Source: an uncultured cyanobacterium (GTDB lineage Bacteria > Cyanobacteriota > Cyanobacteriia > Cyanobacteriales > Microcystaceae). Taken from it: a DNA stretch of 36,364 nt. This document shows positions 3,001 to 12,000 of the stretch, in pieces (the stretch's first letter is position 1; each line of letters opens with the position of its first letter). The stretch is taken from assembly GCA_963807635.1 (NCBI GenBank), contig CAWEDJ010000077.1:1-36364 (forward strand), written 5' to 3'. Made by a program: the position numbers.

Positions 3001-6000
3001 AAGTTAAAGAAATTTCAATCGAAGATATTATGCTTCTCTACCAAGAAAGACTTATTAAATCCCTAAATGATCAATCTCTTGAATTAAAATTGCGGAATCT
3101 ATAAAAATAGAGATTTAATCAAAGATTCACGTTATTTCATAAGTATCTTAAGCTAAATCTAGGTTGTGAAAATAATTCTTTTTCTTATAAATTGTGATTT
3201 TAAGCAAGTTGATCGAATAAAAGATTTTTTGGATTCTCTTTCTGAAAAATATTTTCAAAATGCCACTGTAAAGCGTCAAGTCTTGGATAATATAATTCCT
3301 GATTTGGCAAAATTATTTGTTCACCTTCAAAATTTATCATTGCTCGATTGTTAGGCGTTATTTCGTGTAAATCTTTGCTGACACTAATTCTATAATTTTC
3401 ATCAATAGCAAACCAACCCCGATCAAAAGCCCAGTGATGATTTTTACAAAGTGAAAGACCATTATCAAAGCGATCATCTCGAAATACTGAAAAAGGTTTA
3501 ATGTGAGAACCATCTACAATATTTTGACCAAGAGAATTAATGATTTTTAATCCACAAAATACACAATGATAGTTATAAGCGGAGACAATGGCTTCTCTAA
3601 ATGCAACATCACGAACAATCCTCTTATCCTCATTTTTTAACTCTTTTTTTGTATAAATTTTTCCGCCTGATTCCTTAAGCTCATTCTGGAATTCTTGAAA
3701 CGCATCAATATGAAAGAGTTTGTTGATCTGTTCTTTTTTGTGAGAAAACCAAGTTTCTATTAAAGTATTAATTAAAACTGATCGAGAAACCGAATCTTGC
3801 AACAACAAAAATAATTCATCGTCTAAAAATGCATACAAAATAAAAGTTTGCAGAGATTTAAAACTTTTGGGTTTAAACTCTGAAATAACTTTTTCTAATC
3901 CTGATTTAACCTTAAGATGCCAAAATGCGTCACTTTTATTTTTATTTTTACCTTTTAAGTAAAAAAATGGCAAATAACTAGAATCTTTATGTTTATCTGA
4001 GCCTAAATAACTCCAATATTTTGAAAAAGTTGCAATTAAACTAGCTGATGGATAAATTTGATTGACTGTAATTTTTCTTTGTTCAAATTGTTCAATAACC
4101 GATAAAAGCATGATTGGCTGGTGTGGAGCAATCCCCCGTGATGTATCGATATTTAAACTCGAAAATTTTTGACAATAGTATTTTAGGTCTTTAGGCACAA
4201 TATTTTTTAATGTAATCTAGAAGCCATTGGAATAATAACTTAATTGATTTAAGATTGCAATTAAAAAATAATGAATTGAGAAAATCAAAATTAGTTTTTT
4301 ATGCAAAAAGCGAAATTAGCGATCGCCAAAAACCCAAAACCCTAACTAAAAGCGATCGCCTTCTCCTAGATTGAAAAACGCGATCACCCAAAATCCAAAA
4401 CCCTAACTAAAAGCGATCGCCTCTACCCAGCCACCGACATTCGTGGTATTCCTTAGCGGTAAACCTAACCATTGGCATTCCTTGTTTAAGCATGATGCGA
4501 TCGCCCTTTGATAAACTTCATATTCAATAGGTATAATTTATATGGCGAAATCCTATGAGTGCCACGTTTGACTGGGATAGTCAAAGAGAAGCAGACAACA
4601 AAGCAAAACATGGTGTGGACTTCCAGACAGCCCAATACGCCTTCTTTGATCCCCATCGTTTGATTGTCCATGATGCAAAACACAGTGAAGTTGAAGAACG
4701 TTGGTTTTGTATAGGCAAAGTCAAAGATAGGATTTTAACCGTCCGCTTTACCTATCGTGGCAACGTAATTCGTATATTTGGAGCCGCCGAATGGCGTAAA
4801 ACTCGAAAACTTTATGAAAAACATAACTCCTGATCCCGCAGAAACCATTGGCAACATCACTATCGTCAAAGATTTTTTGCCATCCCCAGAGCAATTAGTC
4901 CCCAGAAAAACGACAGTACGGATAACAATGGAATTTACCCAAGAGAGTATTGAATTTTTTAAACGTGAGGCAAAAAATCACAATGCCTCTTATCAAGCAA
5001 TGATTCGTAATTTAGTAGATACTTACGCCAAACAACAACAGCAATAAATCTCAAAAGGATTAAGTCTCAAAATGCGATCGCCTACTTATCCCATCAAAAA
5101 CGCGATCGCCCAAAATCCAAAGCGATCGCCAAGAGATTCTGCTTGTTCATCTGATATCCTGTTTCATGCCACGTTTTAAAAATATTCTTTCATAAAAATT
5201 CTCAAAGCCACCAATTATTGACAATATCCTTAGTGATGTCATATTCAGAAAGAATTTGATTAGCATATTCATCACCCATCTCCTTAGAATGTCCAATCAA
5301 AGCCCCAAAAGCATCTGCTAAATGAGCCTTGCCTAAAAGACGAAGATGCTTCTCAGCAATATGTCGAAAAGCATGAGGATTAACCCATTTAGCCTCTCCA
5401 AATAAAGCATGGGTAGCGATCGCTGTAGCTCGACGAACAGTTTGCCAGAAAATAGAGACTTCGAGCGGTTGTCCAAAAGCGATCGCATCTTTTTTACCAA
5501 AGGAGAAAAATACCCGATCATTAGTTTTCAATTTTTCTTTAGCCACTGGCCAAACATCAAGACGATATTGTACCCCTGCTAAACGTTTTTCTTTTTCTTG
5601 AAGATAAGCCTCACGGGTTATAGTTAATTTCGGATTCAAAATTCCATTTTTAGCTTTTTCAATTTTATTTTGATATTGCTCAATGATGTTAGGAGAATAT
5701 CCCCAAAAATCCATCCATCCTTCTGGGGTTTGAACCAAATCAACCACTAATTTACGCCAATTAAACAGCCAAGCATCTAGATCTTCTGTCAAGATAGAAG
5801 GTAGAGGATAATGGCGAATCATACCTGTTTTATCACGTTTATGCTTATCTAATCTAACAACATAATAAGGATTACCATTATCATCAACATATCGAAATAA
5901 AGAATCATTAAAAACCCAATTCTTAATTTCTTCTTCCCGAATAGGGCAATAGACTAGAATTTTAACTAATAAATAGGTTTGCCAAGCCCTAACGATAGCC

Positions 6001-9000: not shown

Positions 9001-12000
9001 CTCAATAAGTCAGATGCCCTGGAATCCTTTGGGACACTAATTGGACACTCGAAAGAAATGGGGGATGAATATGCCGCTCAGATTACTACTGATTATGAAT
9101 TATCTCAAAAAGTTGTTGATGACTGGTGGCTGTAATTATCTGTGAAAAATATTTTAACTATAGTGCAATAGTAGAATAGTGCAATAGTGCTAAAGAACTA
9201 TTTATCTTGAAGATTTTTTGTTTTGGTGAGTAAAGAGCGAATATTTCCTGCTTTTGTACGTTGCTTTAGGCGAAATTGAGCTTCTTCAATGATTTTCTTG
9301 ACTAATTTCGGTTGAGTGCTACATACCGTAAAATAAGCTTCAAGCAGCGTTTCTACCGTAATACTATTTTCCTGACACAATTTTCGTACCTCGTCGTAGA
9401 TGCCCTCTTCAAGTCTGACCCCAATCTTTTTATTTGTTACTGAAGGCAGAGATGCTAACTCTTTCTCCAAAAAAAGAGTTGATTGGGCTGGCTTAGTTAC
9501 TTCCTCTTCTTGAGAAACCAGTTGAGTTTCAGGGAGCGATACCTCAGATTTAGGCAAAAGTTCATCCTGACGAGGGGGTACTTTGACAGTCTGTGATTCG
9601 TACTCGTTTTTAATTTTATCGAGCAAACTCATATTTTATCTCCTACTTTTTTCTATGGTTATACTACTTTTGAAGATTTCTCTACTTGAGAGACGATTAC
9701 CTCTCTAACTTCTGGGGAGAAAAAAGGTAGCAGTCGAATCAATAGTTCATCAATGGGATACTCTAGGTTGTTCCCCCCTAAGTCCCTTGGCAAAACCTGC
9801 TCATTAATGGCTCGTTTATAAACATCACTTTCTAGAAGGTTCGGGAGCATTAATGATTCTCCTACGAGATTCTTCATCACTTCGATACTTTCCTTTGTGG
9901 TTTTGGTTGGACTTAATCCAACCCATTTAGCTCGGAATGGCATAATACCCAGCATTTTGCTTTGAGATAGGAGTCCTTGGTAAACTTTGATAAGCTCTAG
10001 AGTTCTTATGAGAGACTGAACCCCTTTTATGTTGGCTTCGGCAGGAATCGCCCAACAGGTTCCTGCTCCTAACGAAGAGAGGGCGAGATGAGATCGTTCT
10101 GGGGGAGGATCGACAATCATAATTCCAAAATTACGCGCCACACGTTCTTCTGGTTTTATTTCGTCACCAACTTGATAAAGTCGCTGACGAAGAACCGTTA
10201 GACTGACCCCAGAGGCGGCCAGAAAGTGGTTAGCATTCTCTAGCTGATCTGTTGCTGGAATGAGAAATACTTGATCTTCATCGGGAATGGGATGGATGGC
10301 ACTATAGAGGGGGATCTTCTTTTCTGGATTGGTAATAACCTCCAAAAGAGTGGGGCGATCAGTGGATGGTTCCACACCGAGGAATGCTGTCAAACTTCCT
10401 GGGGATCGGCATCAATAAAAAGTACGGGGATTCCAAGCCTCGCAATAATCCGTCCTAATATCAAGGCGATAGTGGATTTCCCTTGTCCTCCAGCTAATGC
10501 GAGGGGAACAAATGTCGGACAATCTACTGTAAACATATTTAGTACCAAATTATATTAGAATGATATTATAAATGAACAAATGAGTCAAGGTACTTTAGTG
10601 CAAAAGTGCAAATGCACTAATAAATATTTCTACTAAAGAATAAATCTCTATTAGAAAAAATATCCCCAGAAGTGGCGAAAAGCTCAGGTTTGTTAGAAAG
10701 GCTAAGGAATTTAATTACAGAGAAAATAGATGATTTTATCTAATGGCATGGTAGGTTTAACGTTGAACGAAGGTGAATAATTGCTCTAATTTGGTTTTGC
10801 TAAAAGAGTTTAAAGCCTCGTCTTTGGCTGTTAATGATAGTTCTGATCTCCGTCCCTACCCAAAGTTAAACACAAGTATGAATGCCTTACTACCCTATCT
10901 TAAAATTCAATCTCCTGATGGCGAGCTAGAAACTTTATCTTTAACGAAGACATATTATAAAATAGGTCGTTTGCCAGATTGTAATGACATTGCTTTGCCA
11001 GAGGAAGAAGGCATTATCACTCGTATGGGGCATTGTATTTTAGAACGGGAGGCTCAGGGATGGGGCATTACAGACAAAAGTACTAATGGAACAATAATAG
11101 AAAGGGAAGATAAGCAGATTCAATTAAAGGAACAACCCAATCAAAAAATATTTCTCTCGTCGGGCGATCGCGTTATTATTCATCATTGGCAGCTTCAATT
11201 TTTTGATCCAAATCAAACCACACCCATTAATTTAACGATTAATAGCAATACTTCTTCTAATTCTTGGATATTTAAACGAAGTCAATTAACTTTCTACAAA
11301 ATGGAACGGGGACAAAGAATTGAAGTCCCTATGCGTTTATATCCCAAGGCTATTCAGATGATTGACTGTTTAGCGGCTAAAAATTTGACTCATGAGAATA
11401 CACCCACGATTTGTCAGTACGATGAATTAATTGAGTGGATTTGGCCAGAGGATAGTTTTGGAAAAGGTAATCAAGATATTAATACTTTAGCTAAAGTGAT
11501 TCGTGTGAAGTTGGAGGAGATGGGAGGCTCGAAGGAGTGGCTAGAAACAAAAAAGACAGTGGGATATATTCTTAGAATTAGCTGTGAAGCATAGAAATTA
11601 CCATGCAAATTCTAGTTACTTTCCATTTGTTCTCTATGTTCATTACCCTCAATGACTTGATAGGCTACAAAGGATAAAGAAACAGAAACTATCCCATGAA
11701 TCAGCCAAAACCAACTCATCTTAGAATTTTTCGCAGACAATCCCCTGTGCAGGTATTAGGGCCACATAAACGAGCAGTGATCTGGTTGCAAGGTTGTGAT
11801 TGGGGTTGTCGGGGTTGCATTGTCCCTGAGTCCTGGTCAAAAACGGCGGGGGAGTTAGTTTCCCTAGAGGATTTACAGACTTGGATTTTGGCTCAGTCCG
11901 AGATTGAGGGCATTACTTTTTCGGGGGGTGAACCGATGTTACAGGCAGATGCTCTGACGGAGTTGGTGGATAGGTTACGACAGGAACGCGATTTAGGGGT

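What a model noticed while it worked through the whole genome (the two positions that open the first line are those of the whole stretch)
5188..10663. Divergent pair of giant (~620 aa) tyrosine recombinases in a plasmid-type ParA module
Two paralogous genes of 621 and 618 aa (g03629, g03630; 44-46% identical) lie back to back, have no Pfam, NCBIfam or Swiss-Prot match, yet both keep the R-K-H-R-H-Y catalytic set of tyrosine recombinases behind a ~330-residue helical N-terminal extension. I read them as a two-subunit (heteromeric) site-specific recombinase that travels with a ParA-like partition gene as a 5.5-kb plasmid maintenance/resolution cassette restricted to cyanobacteria. If true this is an undescribed family of double-size, paired tyrosine recombinases and a possible orthogonal recombinase pair for cyanobacterial genetics.
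Evidence so far: No rows in pfam.tsv, ncbifam.tsv, swissprot.tsv; PADLOC none. 77 homologues at E<=1e-8, 394-688 aa, all named ones cyanobacterial; at least 11 cases where two paralogues share a contig length/record, 3 with consecutive locus tags (H6F74_27415/20, KME49_25290/95, VKL20_07955/60; call 75). 28-sequence alignment with both genes of this genome: invariant R374, E377, K407, H562, R565, H590, Y598 (numbering of g03630; call 76). AF2 model from that alignment: pLDDT 84, pTM 0.70; Foldseek best PDB matches XerA 5hxy, Cre 3crx, XerH 5jjv, Tn1549 integrase (prob 1.00, E 3e-4 to 1e-2; call 88). Pair found in 2 of 61 Microcystaceae genomes incl. this one, single weaker matches in 2 more. 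In the other Sno [...]
(Added by a program. Inside this text positions count along the whole contig: contig position 1 is position 1 of the stretch shown here. "Call 12" and the like, gene names such as g00115 and contig names such as C1 are that model's own, and its searches are not shown. The text may have been shortened before it was handed on; [...] marks where a part breaks off. The agent that wrote the report below was given it as the finding of a first reader that could run no searches.)

Follow-up and report, generated by a model that had tools for sequence, protein, structure and literature searches.

The report
Paired plasmid recombinases with their site
Two large, related DNA-cutting-and-rejoining enzymes sit head to head on what looks like a cyanobacterial plasmid, with their likely 37-base target site between them; they most likely keep the plasmid as single copies and could become a new genetic tool.

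Summary
Genes at 5202-7067 (-) and 7279-9135 (+) encode 621- and 618-aa paralogues, 45% identical, with no curated family hit. Both keep the tyrosine-recombinase residues R-K-H-R-H-Y, and the model is Cre-like. New here is a 37-bp site (7210-7246) in the 211-bp gap between the genes: 15-bp inverted arms around a 7-bp AT-rich, asymmetric spacer. It lies in every divergent-pair gap examined, its arms covary, and it occurs once in this genome. Its inner motif sits next to single and tandem relatives down to about 30% identity, and once on a closed 29.5-kb plasmid. The two genes form sister clades that co-diverge. A second, tandem pair arose independently. The "330-residue extension" is a normal Cre-like core-binding domain, an extra ~115-residue core-binding-like domain and an insertion in the catalytic domain. 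The "ParA" is an McdA-like ATPase, frameshifted here, followed by an McdB-like gene. Neighbours elsewhere are plasmid Rep and Par genes. Best reading: a plasmid multimer-resolution module acting at that site, probably as a two-protein recombinase. Catalysis and the heteromer are untested. I rate it a new variant of a known kind, of moderate interest.

The parts
5202..7067 (-). Recombinase B (621 aa): extra N-terminal core-binding-like domain, Cre-like core-binding domain, catalytic domain with R377, K410, H565, R568, H593, Y601
   Evidence: ORF; translation; 45% identical to A; falls in the B clade; catalytic residues conserved in 29 B-clade sequences
7279..9135 (+). Recombinase A (618 aa): N-domain about 1-115, linker 116-150, Cre-like core-binding domain 151-330, catalytic domain 330-618 with a helical insertion at about 445-512; R374, K407, H562, R565, H590, Y598
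   Evidence: ORF; translation; AF2 pLDDT 88.3; Foldseek and VIA matches to Cre, XerA and XerH, Z 15-16 over about 300 residues, model 151-618 on Cre 20-341; residues invariant in 32 A-clade sequences
7210..7246 (.). Candidate core recombination site: left arm 7210-7224, 7-bp AT-rich asymmetric spacer 7225-7231, right arm 7232-7246 (2 mismatches between the arms); it ends 32 bp before the ATG of A
   Evidence: Sequence; conserved in alignments to distant loci; present in all 15 distinct divergent-pair gaps; arms covary; single copy in the 4.03-Mb genome; inner motif lies next to family genes in other clades
7068..7278 (.). 211-bp divergent intergenic region that holds the site and, by inference, both promoters
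   Evidence: the sigma-70 consensus scan found no promoter, so promoter positions are not known
9198..9632 (-). McdB-like small adaptor gene (144 aa) downstream of the ATPase gene
   Evidence: PDB sequence match to McdB-like 6noy, E 2.1e-6, residues 30-132; nearest Atlas clusters are McdB, score 0.94-0.95; no Pfam or NCBIfam hit
9659..10536 (-). McdA-like (ParA-type) ATPase gene, broken by a 1-bp deletion in a G run near 10397-10400. The N-terminal piece 10390-10536 carries the Walker A box without the signature lysine; the C-terminal piece is 9659-10393
   Evidence: Frame analysis; alignment to the intact 296-aa copy in L001; the extra base is present in contigs of 3 of 3 other runs that cover the place; the intact copy matches McdA structures 6noo/6non at E 6.9e-51, against 5.5e-13 for Soj
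9161..9200 (.). 8-bp-period TAGTGCAA-like repeats downstream of the McdB-like gene; candidate centromere or operator repeats (inferred)
   Evidence: Repeat family D1
10596..10619 (.). Further TAGTGCAA-like repeats upstream of the McdA-like gene; candidate operator or centromere (inferred)
   Evidence: Repeat family D1; conserved in L001
33384..36362 (+). 3'-open gene for a large helicase, related to the giant CyRepA-like (DUF3854) proteins found beside the pair in other loci; candidate plasmid replication protein of this contig
   Evidence: Pfam Herpes_ori_bp 4.1e-11; 39% identity over 359 aa to the 1321-aa neighbour in L015, weaker matches to DUF3854 proteins of L014, L016 and L005; DUF3854/DEXDc proteins are cyanobacterial plasmid Rep proteins (PMC10079941, passages)

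Best explanation
The window is a fragment of a cyanobacterial plasmid. The two divergent genes encode paralogous Cre-like tyrosine recombinases, A and B. Each carries an additional N-terminal core-binding-like domain and an insertion in the catalytic domain. Their cognate site is the 37-bp element at 7210-7246 between the genes: two 15-bp inverted binding arms around a 7-bp AT-rich, asymmetric crossover region. I propose that A and B assemble on two copies of this site, present as direct repeats on a plasmid dimer, probably as an A2B2 tetramer by analogy with XerC/XerD. They would exchange strands across the 7-bp region through the conserved tyrosines and so return multimers to monomers. The module would then work beside the McdA/McdB-like partition genes and the Rep gene as a maintenance function. 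Because the site lies in the shared control region, binding probably also feeds back on transcription. Shown here: the fold, the catalytic residues, the conservation and covariation of the site, its single copy, the co-divergence of A and B, and the plasmid-type neighbours. Inferred: DNA binding, catalysis, the heteromer, multimer resolution as the biological role, and autoregulation.
For: Fold and residues: AF2 pLDDT 88.3. Foldseek gives XerA, Cre and XerH at E 1.7e-4 to 6e-4. VIA gives Cre/Tre Z 15-16, about 300 aligned residues, model 151-618 on Cre 20-341. R, K, H, R, H and Y are kept in 32 A-clade and 29 B-clade sequences. K407 lies between strands 397-403 and 415-418. Site: an inverted repeat with 15-bp arms and a 7-bp spacer lies in all 15 distinct divergent-pair gaps (16 loci and the window, two loci being duplicates). 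It also lies upstream of 4 edge-cut genes. In whole-locus scans it is the only such repeat in 16 of the 17 divergent-pair loci where the <=1-mismatch scan detects it; L022 has one further repeat near its contig end. On 15 distinct sites 96.9% of cells pair, 7 of 15 positions change on both sides, and 29 cells are compensatory against 7.5+/-2.0 in shuffles (0 of 500 reach it); slid registers pair at 17-47%. Spacers differ even between close relatives, but all are AT-rich and asymmetric. The site occurs once in the 4.03-Mb genome, scoring 30/30 against a next best of 22/30. The inner motif TTC-R-Y-AC, 6-8 nt, G-K-R-Y-GAA hits 26 times in 553 kb of loci and window, and every hit is within about 700 bp of a family gene. 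That includes single-gene and tandem clades at about 30% identity, once on the closed 29.5-kb Crinalium plasmid, and no other place in the own genome. Pairing: A and B are sister clades, 12 of 12 same-contig pairs have one member in each, and the topologies mirror each other; identity matrices correlate at r=0.96 over 55 comparisons. A tandem pair arose separately in another clade. Plasmid setting: McdA/McdB-like genes, of a kind reported on cyanobacterial plasmids as the sole ParA-type system (PMC7182216, passages). ParA, ParAB, RepA_C, DUF3854 Rep-like, DnaB and FtsK neighbours occur in other loci. Relatives lie on 7 PLSDB plasmids. The contig has no tRNA or Rfam RNA.
Against: No experiment and no recombination product was seen. 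The arms are perfectly symmetric in 10 of 15 distinct sites, so the two proteins need not read different half-sites as XerC and XerD do. Single-gene relatives carry the same kind of site, so one protein can suffice for this chemistry. The site ends 32 bp before the start of A and could act mainly as an operator. The contig is not closed, so plasmid status is inferred from gene content. The partition ATPase is frameshifted here, so the module may be decaying in this genome, or the assembly may be wrong at that homopolymer. An attP-like integration role also predicts one site per element next to the recombinase genes.
Confidence: 0.5

Rival explanations
1. Integration/excision module: the 37-bp site is an attP, and A and B integrate the plasmid-like element into a chromosomal or other plasmid target, which would leave A and B at opposite ends of the integrated form.
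For: One site per element next to the recombinase genes fits attP as well as a resolution site. The 5.5-kb cassette lies in at least three different flanking contexts.
Against: No split pair and no hybrid site were seen. Among distinct loci with enough upstream sequence, 11 of 12 keep B, the site and A together; the exception, L014, has an IS element in place of the site. The context breakpoints are at the cassette ends, not at the site. The neighbours are Rep and Par genes. The contig has no tRNA gene. No partner site exists in the genome.
Confidence: 0.12
2. The two recombinases act separately: each forms its own homotetramer on the same symmetric site, or one has a second, unidentified target. 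They stay together only because they share a control region.
For: Arms are symmetric in 10 of 15 distinct sites. Single-gene relatives have the same kind of site. Both paralogues keep full catalytic sets.
Against: The duplication is old and both copies are retained in 12 of 12 same-contig pairs, with mirrored trees and r=0.96. The homologue list splits into nearly equal numbers, 33 A and 30 B. A second, independent duplication was also retained, as a tandem pair. Redundant copies would be expected to be lost often.
Confidence: 0.2
3. The palindrome is only a regulatory element: an operator for autorepression of the divergent genes, or an RNA hairpin in the leader of A. The real recombination target would lie elsewhere.
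For: The site lies in the divergent control region, ending 32-42 bp (4 loci) or about 60-150 bp (the rest) before the called start of A. Its arms would also pair as RNA.
Against: In single-gene clades the same inner motif lies downstream of the gene (L006, L008, L012, L043) or upstream (L009, L034, L035, L038, Crinalium), so its place relative to the transcript is not fixed. The arm sequence itself is conserved, not only the pairing (8 of 15 arm positions never vary). The recurrent mismatch at position 14 is A.G, not a wobble pair. The geometry of arms plus a 6-8-nt asymmetric centre is that of known tyrosine-recombinase core sites. No Rfam family and no terminator-like site were found.
Confidence: 0.1
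4. Telomere resolvase (protelomerase) of a linear plasmid, cutting a palindrome next to its own gene to make hairpin ends.
For: The size of about 620 aa, the tyrosine-recombinase-like catalytic domain and a palindrome beside the gene resemble TelN/TelK as I recall them, not from a call here.
Against: Hairpin formation needs a centre that is self-complementary. All 17 A/B-clade sites have a 7-nt centre, which cannot be self-complementary, and none of the 15 distinct ones is symmetric. The 6-nt centres in the other clades are not palindromic either. A relative with the motif lies on a closed circular plasmid.
Confidence: 0.02

Closest known systems
Cre/loxP of phage-plasmid P1 (and Dre/rox)
   Same: Best structural match: Z 15-16, about 300 residues, both domains. 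One site beside the gene on a plasmid-like replicon. Inverted arms around an asymmetric AT-rich centre. Cre's role in resolving P1 plasmid dimers is recalled, not from a call.
   Different: About 11% sequence identity and no profile match to any PDB sequence. Two paralogues instead of one protein. An extra N-terminal core-binding-like domain and an insertion of about 70 residues in the catalytic domain. 15-bp arms and a 7-nt centre, against 13 + 8 for loxP (recalled).
XerC/XerD acting at dif, cer and psi
   Same: Two paralogous, catalytically complete tyrosine recombinases that, in Xer, form a heterotetramer and resolve chromosome and plasmid multimers. Faint XerC/XerD box-II hits. XerA, XerH and XerD appear among the fold matches.
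   Different: NCBIfam XerC/XerD scores are 15-19 bits against cut-offs of about 330. The genes are plasmid-borne, adjacent and divergent, with the site between them. The arms are mostly symmetric, whereas the dif half-sites differ (recalled). The proteins are twice the size.
RitA of 'recombinase in trio' elements
   Same: Described as having two sequential core-binding domains (PMC8138268, passage). That is the architecture inferred here from VIA matches of the N-domain to integrase core-binding domains, Z 5-6.7.
   Different: RIT elements carry three tandem recombinase genes. Here there are two, divergent or, in another clade, tandem, and no third. No sequence relationship was tested.
Tn554 TnpA/TnpB (two tyrosine recombinases, one of about 630 aa; recalled)
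   Same: A pair of adjacent tyrosine-recombinase genes, one of them large.
   Different: Tn554 is a transposon with a third gene, tnpC, and unequal partners. Here the partners are equal-sized paralogues in a Rep/Par setting with one palindromic site. This comparison is from memory and was not tested.
Plasmid-encoded McdA-like/McdB-like pair of Cyanothece PCC 7424 (PDB 6non/6noo, 6noy)
   Same: The neighbouring ATPase matches at E 6.9e-51 and lacks the signature lysine. The small downstream protein matches 6noy at E 2.1e-6. [quoted passage not shown]
   Different: This concerns the neighbouring genes, not the recombinases. The ATPase gene is frameshifted in this window.

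Membership tests
Tyrosine recombinase superfamily (Cre/Xer/lambda Int fold) | Catalytic residues R, K, H-x-x-R, H/W and the nucleophile Y in the canonical order and spacing | tested here: met
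   R374, K407, H562, R565, H590 and Y598 in A and the equivalents in B. Five are invariant and two kept in >=90% of 73 sequences. They are kept in both clades. The spacing is like Cre's, whose numbering is recalled.
Tyrosine recombinase superfamily (Cre/Xer/lambda Int fold) | Two-domain clamp fold: core-binding domain plus catalytic domain | tested here: met
   VIA Z 15-16, rmsd about 5 A, about 300 aligned residues, model 151-618 on Cre 20-341. Foldseek probability 1.00, E 1.7e-4. The model has pLDDT 88.3.
Tyrosine recombinase superfamily (Cre/Xer/lambda Int fold) | Cognate site of two inverted binding elements around a 6-8-bp asymmetric crossover region | tested here: met
   The 37-bp site is conserved and covarying. 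Its inner motif lies beside family genes across clades. Binding itself was not tested.
Tyrosine recombinase superfamily (Cre/Xer/lambda Int fold) | Catalyses conservative site-specific recombination through a 3'-phosphotyrosine intermediate | not testable with these tools
   Needs in vivo or in vitro assays.
Pfam PF00589 Phage_integrase, as modelled | Score at or above the gathering cut-off (27.1 bits) | tested here: not met
   No PF00589 hit for A or B at E<=0.1. Of 40 profile-linked relatives scanned, 21 match at E<=0.001, several above the cut-off. One of the 77 close homologues has a precomputed PF00589 hit.
XerC/XerD | NCBIfam equivalog score (TIGR02224/TIGR02225) | tested here: not met
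   15.3 and 19.3 bits against cut-offs of 329.6 and 335.15.
XerC/XerD | Two different half-sites, each read by one paralogue | tested here: not met
   Arms are perfectly symmetric in 10 of 15 distinct sites. The only recurrent asymmetry is one position (14/24) on the arm nearer to A, in 5 of 15.
XerC/XerD | Physical heterotetramer on DNA | not testable with these tools
   Needs co-purification, or footprinting with each protein alone and with both.
Telomere resolvases (TelN/TelK/ResT) | Target palindromic through its centre, so that hairpins can form | tested here: not met
   The centres are 7 nt and asymmetric in all 17 A/B-clade sites. The 6-nt centres in the other clades are not self-complementary.
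Telomere resolvases (TelN/TelK/ResT) | Fold closer to TelK/TelA than to Cre/Xer | tested here: inconclusive
   The rows listed are Cre, Xer, integrases and type IB topoisomerases. A family that is not listed is not thereby excluded.
RIT elements / Tn554-type multi-recombinase transposons | Three tandem genes (ritA-B-C, or tnpA-B-C) | tested here: not met
   Two divergent genes here. In 52 loci there are at most two family genes per locus, divergent or tandem.
Plasmid McdA-like/McdB-like partition pair (neighbouring genes) | ParA-type ATPase without the Walker-A signature lysine, followed by a small McdB-like gene | tested here: met
   The Walker A box reads A-G-G-Q-G-K-S-T. 6noo matches at E 6.9e-51 and 6noy at E 2.1e-6. 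The Atlas McdB clusters score 0.94-0.95. The family description is from PMC7182216 passages.

The most novel reading that the evidence does not exclude
A and B form an obligate A2B2 recombinase on a symmetric 37-bp site, and each paralogue exchanges one pair of strands. The extra N-terminal core-binding-like domain reads the outer part of the unusually long 15-bp arms, or the GTAC-containing motifs nearby. This would be a self-contained, plasmid-encoded counterpart of XerCD that evolved twice within one family. It would also be a ready two-key, Cre/lox-orthogonal recombination system with several natural specificity variants of the arms.
Probability: 0.3. Interest if true: 0.7.

Novelty: new variant of a known kind. 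Interest (0 to 1): 0.55.

Why it matters
Little is known about how cyanobacterial plasmids are maintained. This work links a recombinase family that I did not find described (paper searches) to a defined DNA site and to Rep and Par modules, which gives a concrete candidate for their multimer-resolution system. The protein pair and its 37-bp site make a directly testable recombinase/site combination. At least five arm variants occur in nature, and expression could be controlled with two keys. That could serve as a tool orthogonal to Cre/lox and Flp/FRT, in cyanobacteria above all. The independent origin of two-paralogue versions, divergent and tandem, beside single-gene relatives offers a natural series for asking why tyrosine recombinases become heteromeric, as XerC/XerD did.

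Tried and rejected
The complex prediction of A(150-618) with B(152-621) scored 0.01; that is no verdict and was not used either way. Foldseek with the N-domain alone found nothing at E<=0.001, best 1.6; only the wide VIA search pointed to integrase core-binding domains, at modest Z. The profile of 73 sequences found no PDB sequence at E<=1, and the single sequence gave only chance-level rows. No relative was found in viral contigs. A second copy of the site, or paired half-sites, was sought in the genome and not found; the next best score was 22/30. Terminal repeats or duplications at the cassette ends (5188 and 10663) were looked for and none was convincing. The contig ends share no overlap of 16 nt or more, so circularity is not shown. 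The sigma-70 and terminator consensus scan of 6950-7400 found none. There were no Rfam matches and no tRNA genes. No RNA holder was listed among the sequencing runs; the best DNA holders have 0.29 of the words and are contigs only, so expression and read-level junctions could not be examined. Palindromes near outlier genes (L005, L014) turned out to be ends of an IS element. Some GC-rich palindromes just after genes (L006 at 11681, L043 at 9923, L038 at 2835) look like terminators and were not counted as sites. Telomere resolvase was considered and rejected on the asymmetry of the centre. Paper searches found no description of this family; the paper on Microcystis plasmids mentions only ordinary tyrosine recombinases (passages).

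Full report
OBSERVATION. The window is one whole 36,364-bp contig (C77) of a 107-contig, 4.03-Mb draft genome. ORFs at 5202-7067 (-) and 7279-9135 (+) encode 621 and 618 residues. I call them B and A. They are 45% identical (278/620) from end to end and lie head to head across a 211-bp gap. Neither reaches a Pfam, NCBIfam or PHROGs threshold. Only faint SAM-like hits (residues 83-110) and XerC/XerD box-II hits (residues 529-594) appear. There are 77 homologues, all at E<=1.6e-74, and every named one is cyanobacterial. Eleven pairs share a contig length. R374, E377, R565, H590 and Y598 are invariant, and K407 and H562 are kept in >=90% of 73 sequences.

FOLD AND DOMAINS. An AF2 model of A from the 73-row alignment has pLDDT 88.3 and pTM 0.78. 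Foldseek ranks XerA, Cre, XerH, IntI, the Tn1549 integrase and lambda Int first, at E 1.7e-4 to 1.5e-2. VIA-align gives Z 15-16 for Cre/Tre with about 300 aligned residues, placing model 151-618 on Cre 20-341. So residues 151-330 are an ordinary Cre-like core-binding domain, and 330-618 is the catalytic domain. The catalytic domain holds extra helices at roughly 445-512. K407 lies in the hairpin between strands 397-403 and 415-418.

The truly additional part is the N-terminal ~115 residues plus a poorly ordered linker. Folded alone (pLDDT 85.8), this part finds nothing with Foldseek. In an unbiased VIA search of 48,161 chains its best matches are integrase core-binding domains: 3nrw at Z 6.7 and lambda Int core-binding domain at Z 6.2-6.3. 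About 20 of the 50 listed rows are of this kind. These Z values are modest for a helical domain, so I treat a second core-binding-like domain as likely, not proven. RitA recombinases are described as having two sequential core-binding domains (PMC8138268, passage).

FAMILY AND HISTORY. A FastTree of 73 homologues and an IQ-TREE of 36 proteins cut from loci both show A-type and B-type proteins as sister clades (support 96-99). In 12 of 12 same-contig pairs one member falls in each clade, and the sub-topologies mirror each other. Across 11 loci the A-A and B-B identity matrices correlate at r=0.96 over 55 comparisons. Both clades keep all catalytic residues. Single-gene relatives (L005, L006, L008, L011, L036, L043) branch outside the A/B split. 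A separate clade contains single genes (L035 and a Crinalium plasmid) and tandem pairs (L009, L034, L038) that come from an independent duplication.

A profile search of 1.84 billion representatives finds 520 at E<=1e-3, 275 at <=1e-10 and 112 at <=1e-30. Of 40 of these that I scanned, 21 match Pfam Phage_integrase at E<=0.001. The pair is therefore a divergent branch of a wider group of long tyrosine recombinases, not an isolated family. The family is rare. Seven of 401 sampled genomes of the phylum have any match, and only the window's genome has the full pair. No relative was found in viral contigs.

THE SITE. Aligning the gap between the genes with three distant loci exposed one conserved block. 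In the window it is 7210-7246: a 15-bp left arm, a 7-bp spacer and a 15-bp right arm, with two mismatches between the arms. The same element lies in all 15 distinct divergent-pair gaps (16 loci and the window, two loci being duplicates). It also lies upstream of four genes cut by contig ends. In whole-locus scans for 14+7+14 inverted repeats with at most one mismatch, it is the only one in 16 of the 17 divergent-pair loci where that scan detects it; L022 has one further repeat near its contig end, and the window and L001, with two mismatches, fall outside the scan.

The arms come in variants that change on both sides together. On 15 distinct sites 96.9% of cells pair and 7 of 15 positions show double changes. 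There are 29 compensatory cells against 7.5+/-2.0 in shuffles (0 of 500 reach it), and slid registers pair at only 17-47%. Ten of the 15 have perfectly symmetric arms. The other five share an A.G mismatch at position 14, on the arm nearer to A. The spacers are always 7 nt, AT-rich and asymmetric, and they differ even between close relatives. That is what a crossover region needs: identity between partner sites rather than a fixed sequence.

The inner motif (TTC-R-Y-AC, 6-8 nt, G-K-R-Y-GAA) occurs 26 times in 553 kb of loci and window. Every occurrence is within about 700 bp of a family gene, upstream in some clades and downstream in others. It occurs once on the closed 29.5-kb Crinalium plasmid and nowhere else in the 4.03-Mb genome. 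A position-weighted scan of the genome gives 30/30 for the site and 22/30 for the next best.

CONTEXT. The stretch 5188-10663 is 92% identical to a Snowella MAG contig, and the flanks are unrelated: type I restriction-modification genes there, BrnT/BrnA and an FHA regulator here. Contigs of other metagenome runs carry the same cassette, one of them with a third kind of left flank.

The 'ParA' is split by a 1-bp deletion in a G run near 10397-10400. The extra base is present in 3 of 3 other runs that cover the place. The intact Snowella copy (296 aa) matches McdA structures at E 6.9e-51, against 5.5e-13 for Soj, and it lacks the Walker-A signature lysine. The 144-aa downstream protein matches the McdB-like structure 6noy at E 2.1e-6 and McdB clusters in the Atlas. 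[quoted passage not shown]

In other loci the pair sits beside an unrelated ParA (L002, L015), ParA-ParB (L003), RepA_C (L028) or giant DUF3854 proteins (L005, L014, L016). The 3'-open gene at the window's end (33384-36362) is related to these giants. DUF3854/DEXDc proteins are the CyRepA plasmid replication proteins (PMC10079941, passages). tblastn finds relatives on 7 PLSDB plasmids, all cyanobacterial; only the Crinalium one is full length, and a ParA gene lies nearby. The rest of the contig carries defence and signalling genes and no tRNA or known RNA.

MECHANISM. The best-supported reading is a plasmid multimer-resolution module. A and B bind the inverted arms, pair two sites on a dimer, and exchange strands across the 7-bp centre through Y598 and Y601. 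Three observations favour joint action, as in XerC/XerD: the age of the duplication, the strict co-retention of both copies, and a second, independent retained duplication. The symmetric arms and the single-gene relatives show that the chemistry does not require two proteins, so I put the heteromer at about even odds. The position of the site in the shared control region suggests autoregulation, which is inferred. The rivals are integration (attP), separate action, an operator or RNA hairpin only, and telomere resolution. They are weighed in their own sections. Telomere resolution is excluded in practice by the asymmetric centres and by the closed circular plasmid.

COMPARISON AND NOVELTY. By fold and residues this is a member of the tyrosine recombinase superfamily. 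It is not a member of XerC/XerD as modelled by NCBIfam or of Pfam PF00589 as modelled, and it is not a RIT or Tn554 element. It works most like Cre/loxP or XerCD/cer on plasmids. Four things are new: the paired, divergent arrangement with the site between the genes; the extra core-binding-like domain and the catalytic-domain insertion; the long 15-bp arms; and the link to cyanobacterial Rep/Par backbones. I found no description of the family in three full-text searches. That note is not independent evidence.

LIMITS. There is no functional data. The contig is not closed. Promoters were not located. The N-domain assignment rests on modest structural scores. The supplements of the cited papers were not read.

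Noticed in passing
window 10390-10536 and 9659-10393 (-): The McdA-like ATPase gene is broken by a 1-bp deletion in a G run near 10397-10400, relative to the Snowella copy. Contigs of 3 of 3 other runs that cover the place have the extra base. This is either a real inactivation or a homopolymer error in the assembly.
   Followed up: partly
window 9161-9200 and 10596-10619: TAGTGCAA-like 8-bp repeats flank the McdA/McdB-like operon on both sides and are conserved in L001. They are candidate centromere or operator repeats for this little-studied plasmid partition type.
   Followed up: no
window 7094-7104; loci L002, L015, L020, L021, L025 about 25-30 bp left of the core site: A conserved TATAGTAC-like motif, sometimes paired with ACTATAA/G a few bases on, lies on the B side of the core site. 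It contains the outer letters of the arm (AGTAC). It could be an accessory half-site or a pair of -10 boxes.
   Followed up: no
site position 14/24 (window 7223 and 7233): The only recurrent asymmetry of the site is an A.G mismatch, T changed to G on the arm nearer to A. It appears in 5 of 15 distinct sites from three lineages whose close relatives are symmetric, and never on the other arm. This may be a hint of functional asymmetry.
   Followed up: partly
L014:878-2991 and L005:12008-14117: An IS element of about 2.1 kb (Tnp_DNA_bind/DDE transposase) has terminal inverted repeats that themselves contain a 14+7+14 palindrome. In L014 it sits exactly where B and the site should be, leaving A alone. 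The same IS lies downstream of the single recombinase gene in L005, and both loci share a DUF3854 Rep-like gene.
   Followed up: partly
L009:7294-11152, L034:7980-11823, L038:3272-7111: Tandem pairs of family genes arose by a duplication independent of the A/B split. A TTCGTAC-N8-GTACGAA site lies about 150-185 bp upstream of the first gene, and further TTCGTAC-like half-sites lie nearer to the start.
   Followed up: partly
window 5188-5196: The left end of the shared cassette, just past the stop of B, is a breakpoint in three different contexts: this window, L001 and run X5, and a 12-kb contig of run X1. No repeat or site was recognised there.
   Followed up: partly
window 2-2147 (-): DndD-like (AAA_23) and DndC genes lie at the contig start. 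The DndC ORF aligns only from model position 158, so it seems to lack its N-terminal third. A 260-aa ORF of no known family follows at 2322-3104.
   Followed up: no
window 12350-13612, 19480-21161, 24149-25928, 27181-29592: There are four copies of a Ser/Thr kinase joined to, or followed by, an FGE-sulfatase-like domain. FHA, PP2C, VWA, AAA_2 ATPase, NYN, HEPN/nucleotidyltransferase and AIPR genes lie among them. This is a large signalling or defence-like cargo region on the same contig.
   Followed up: no
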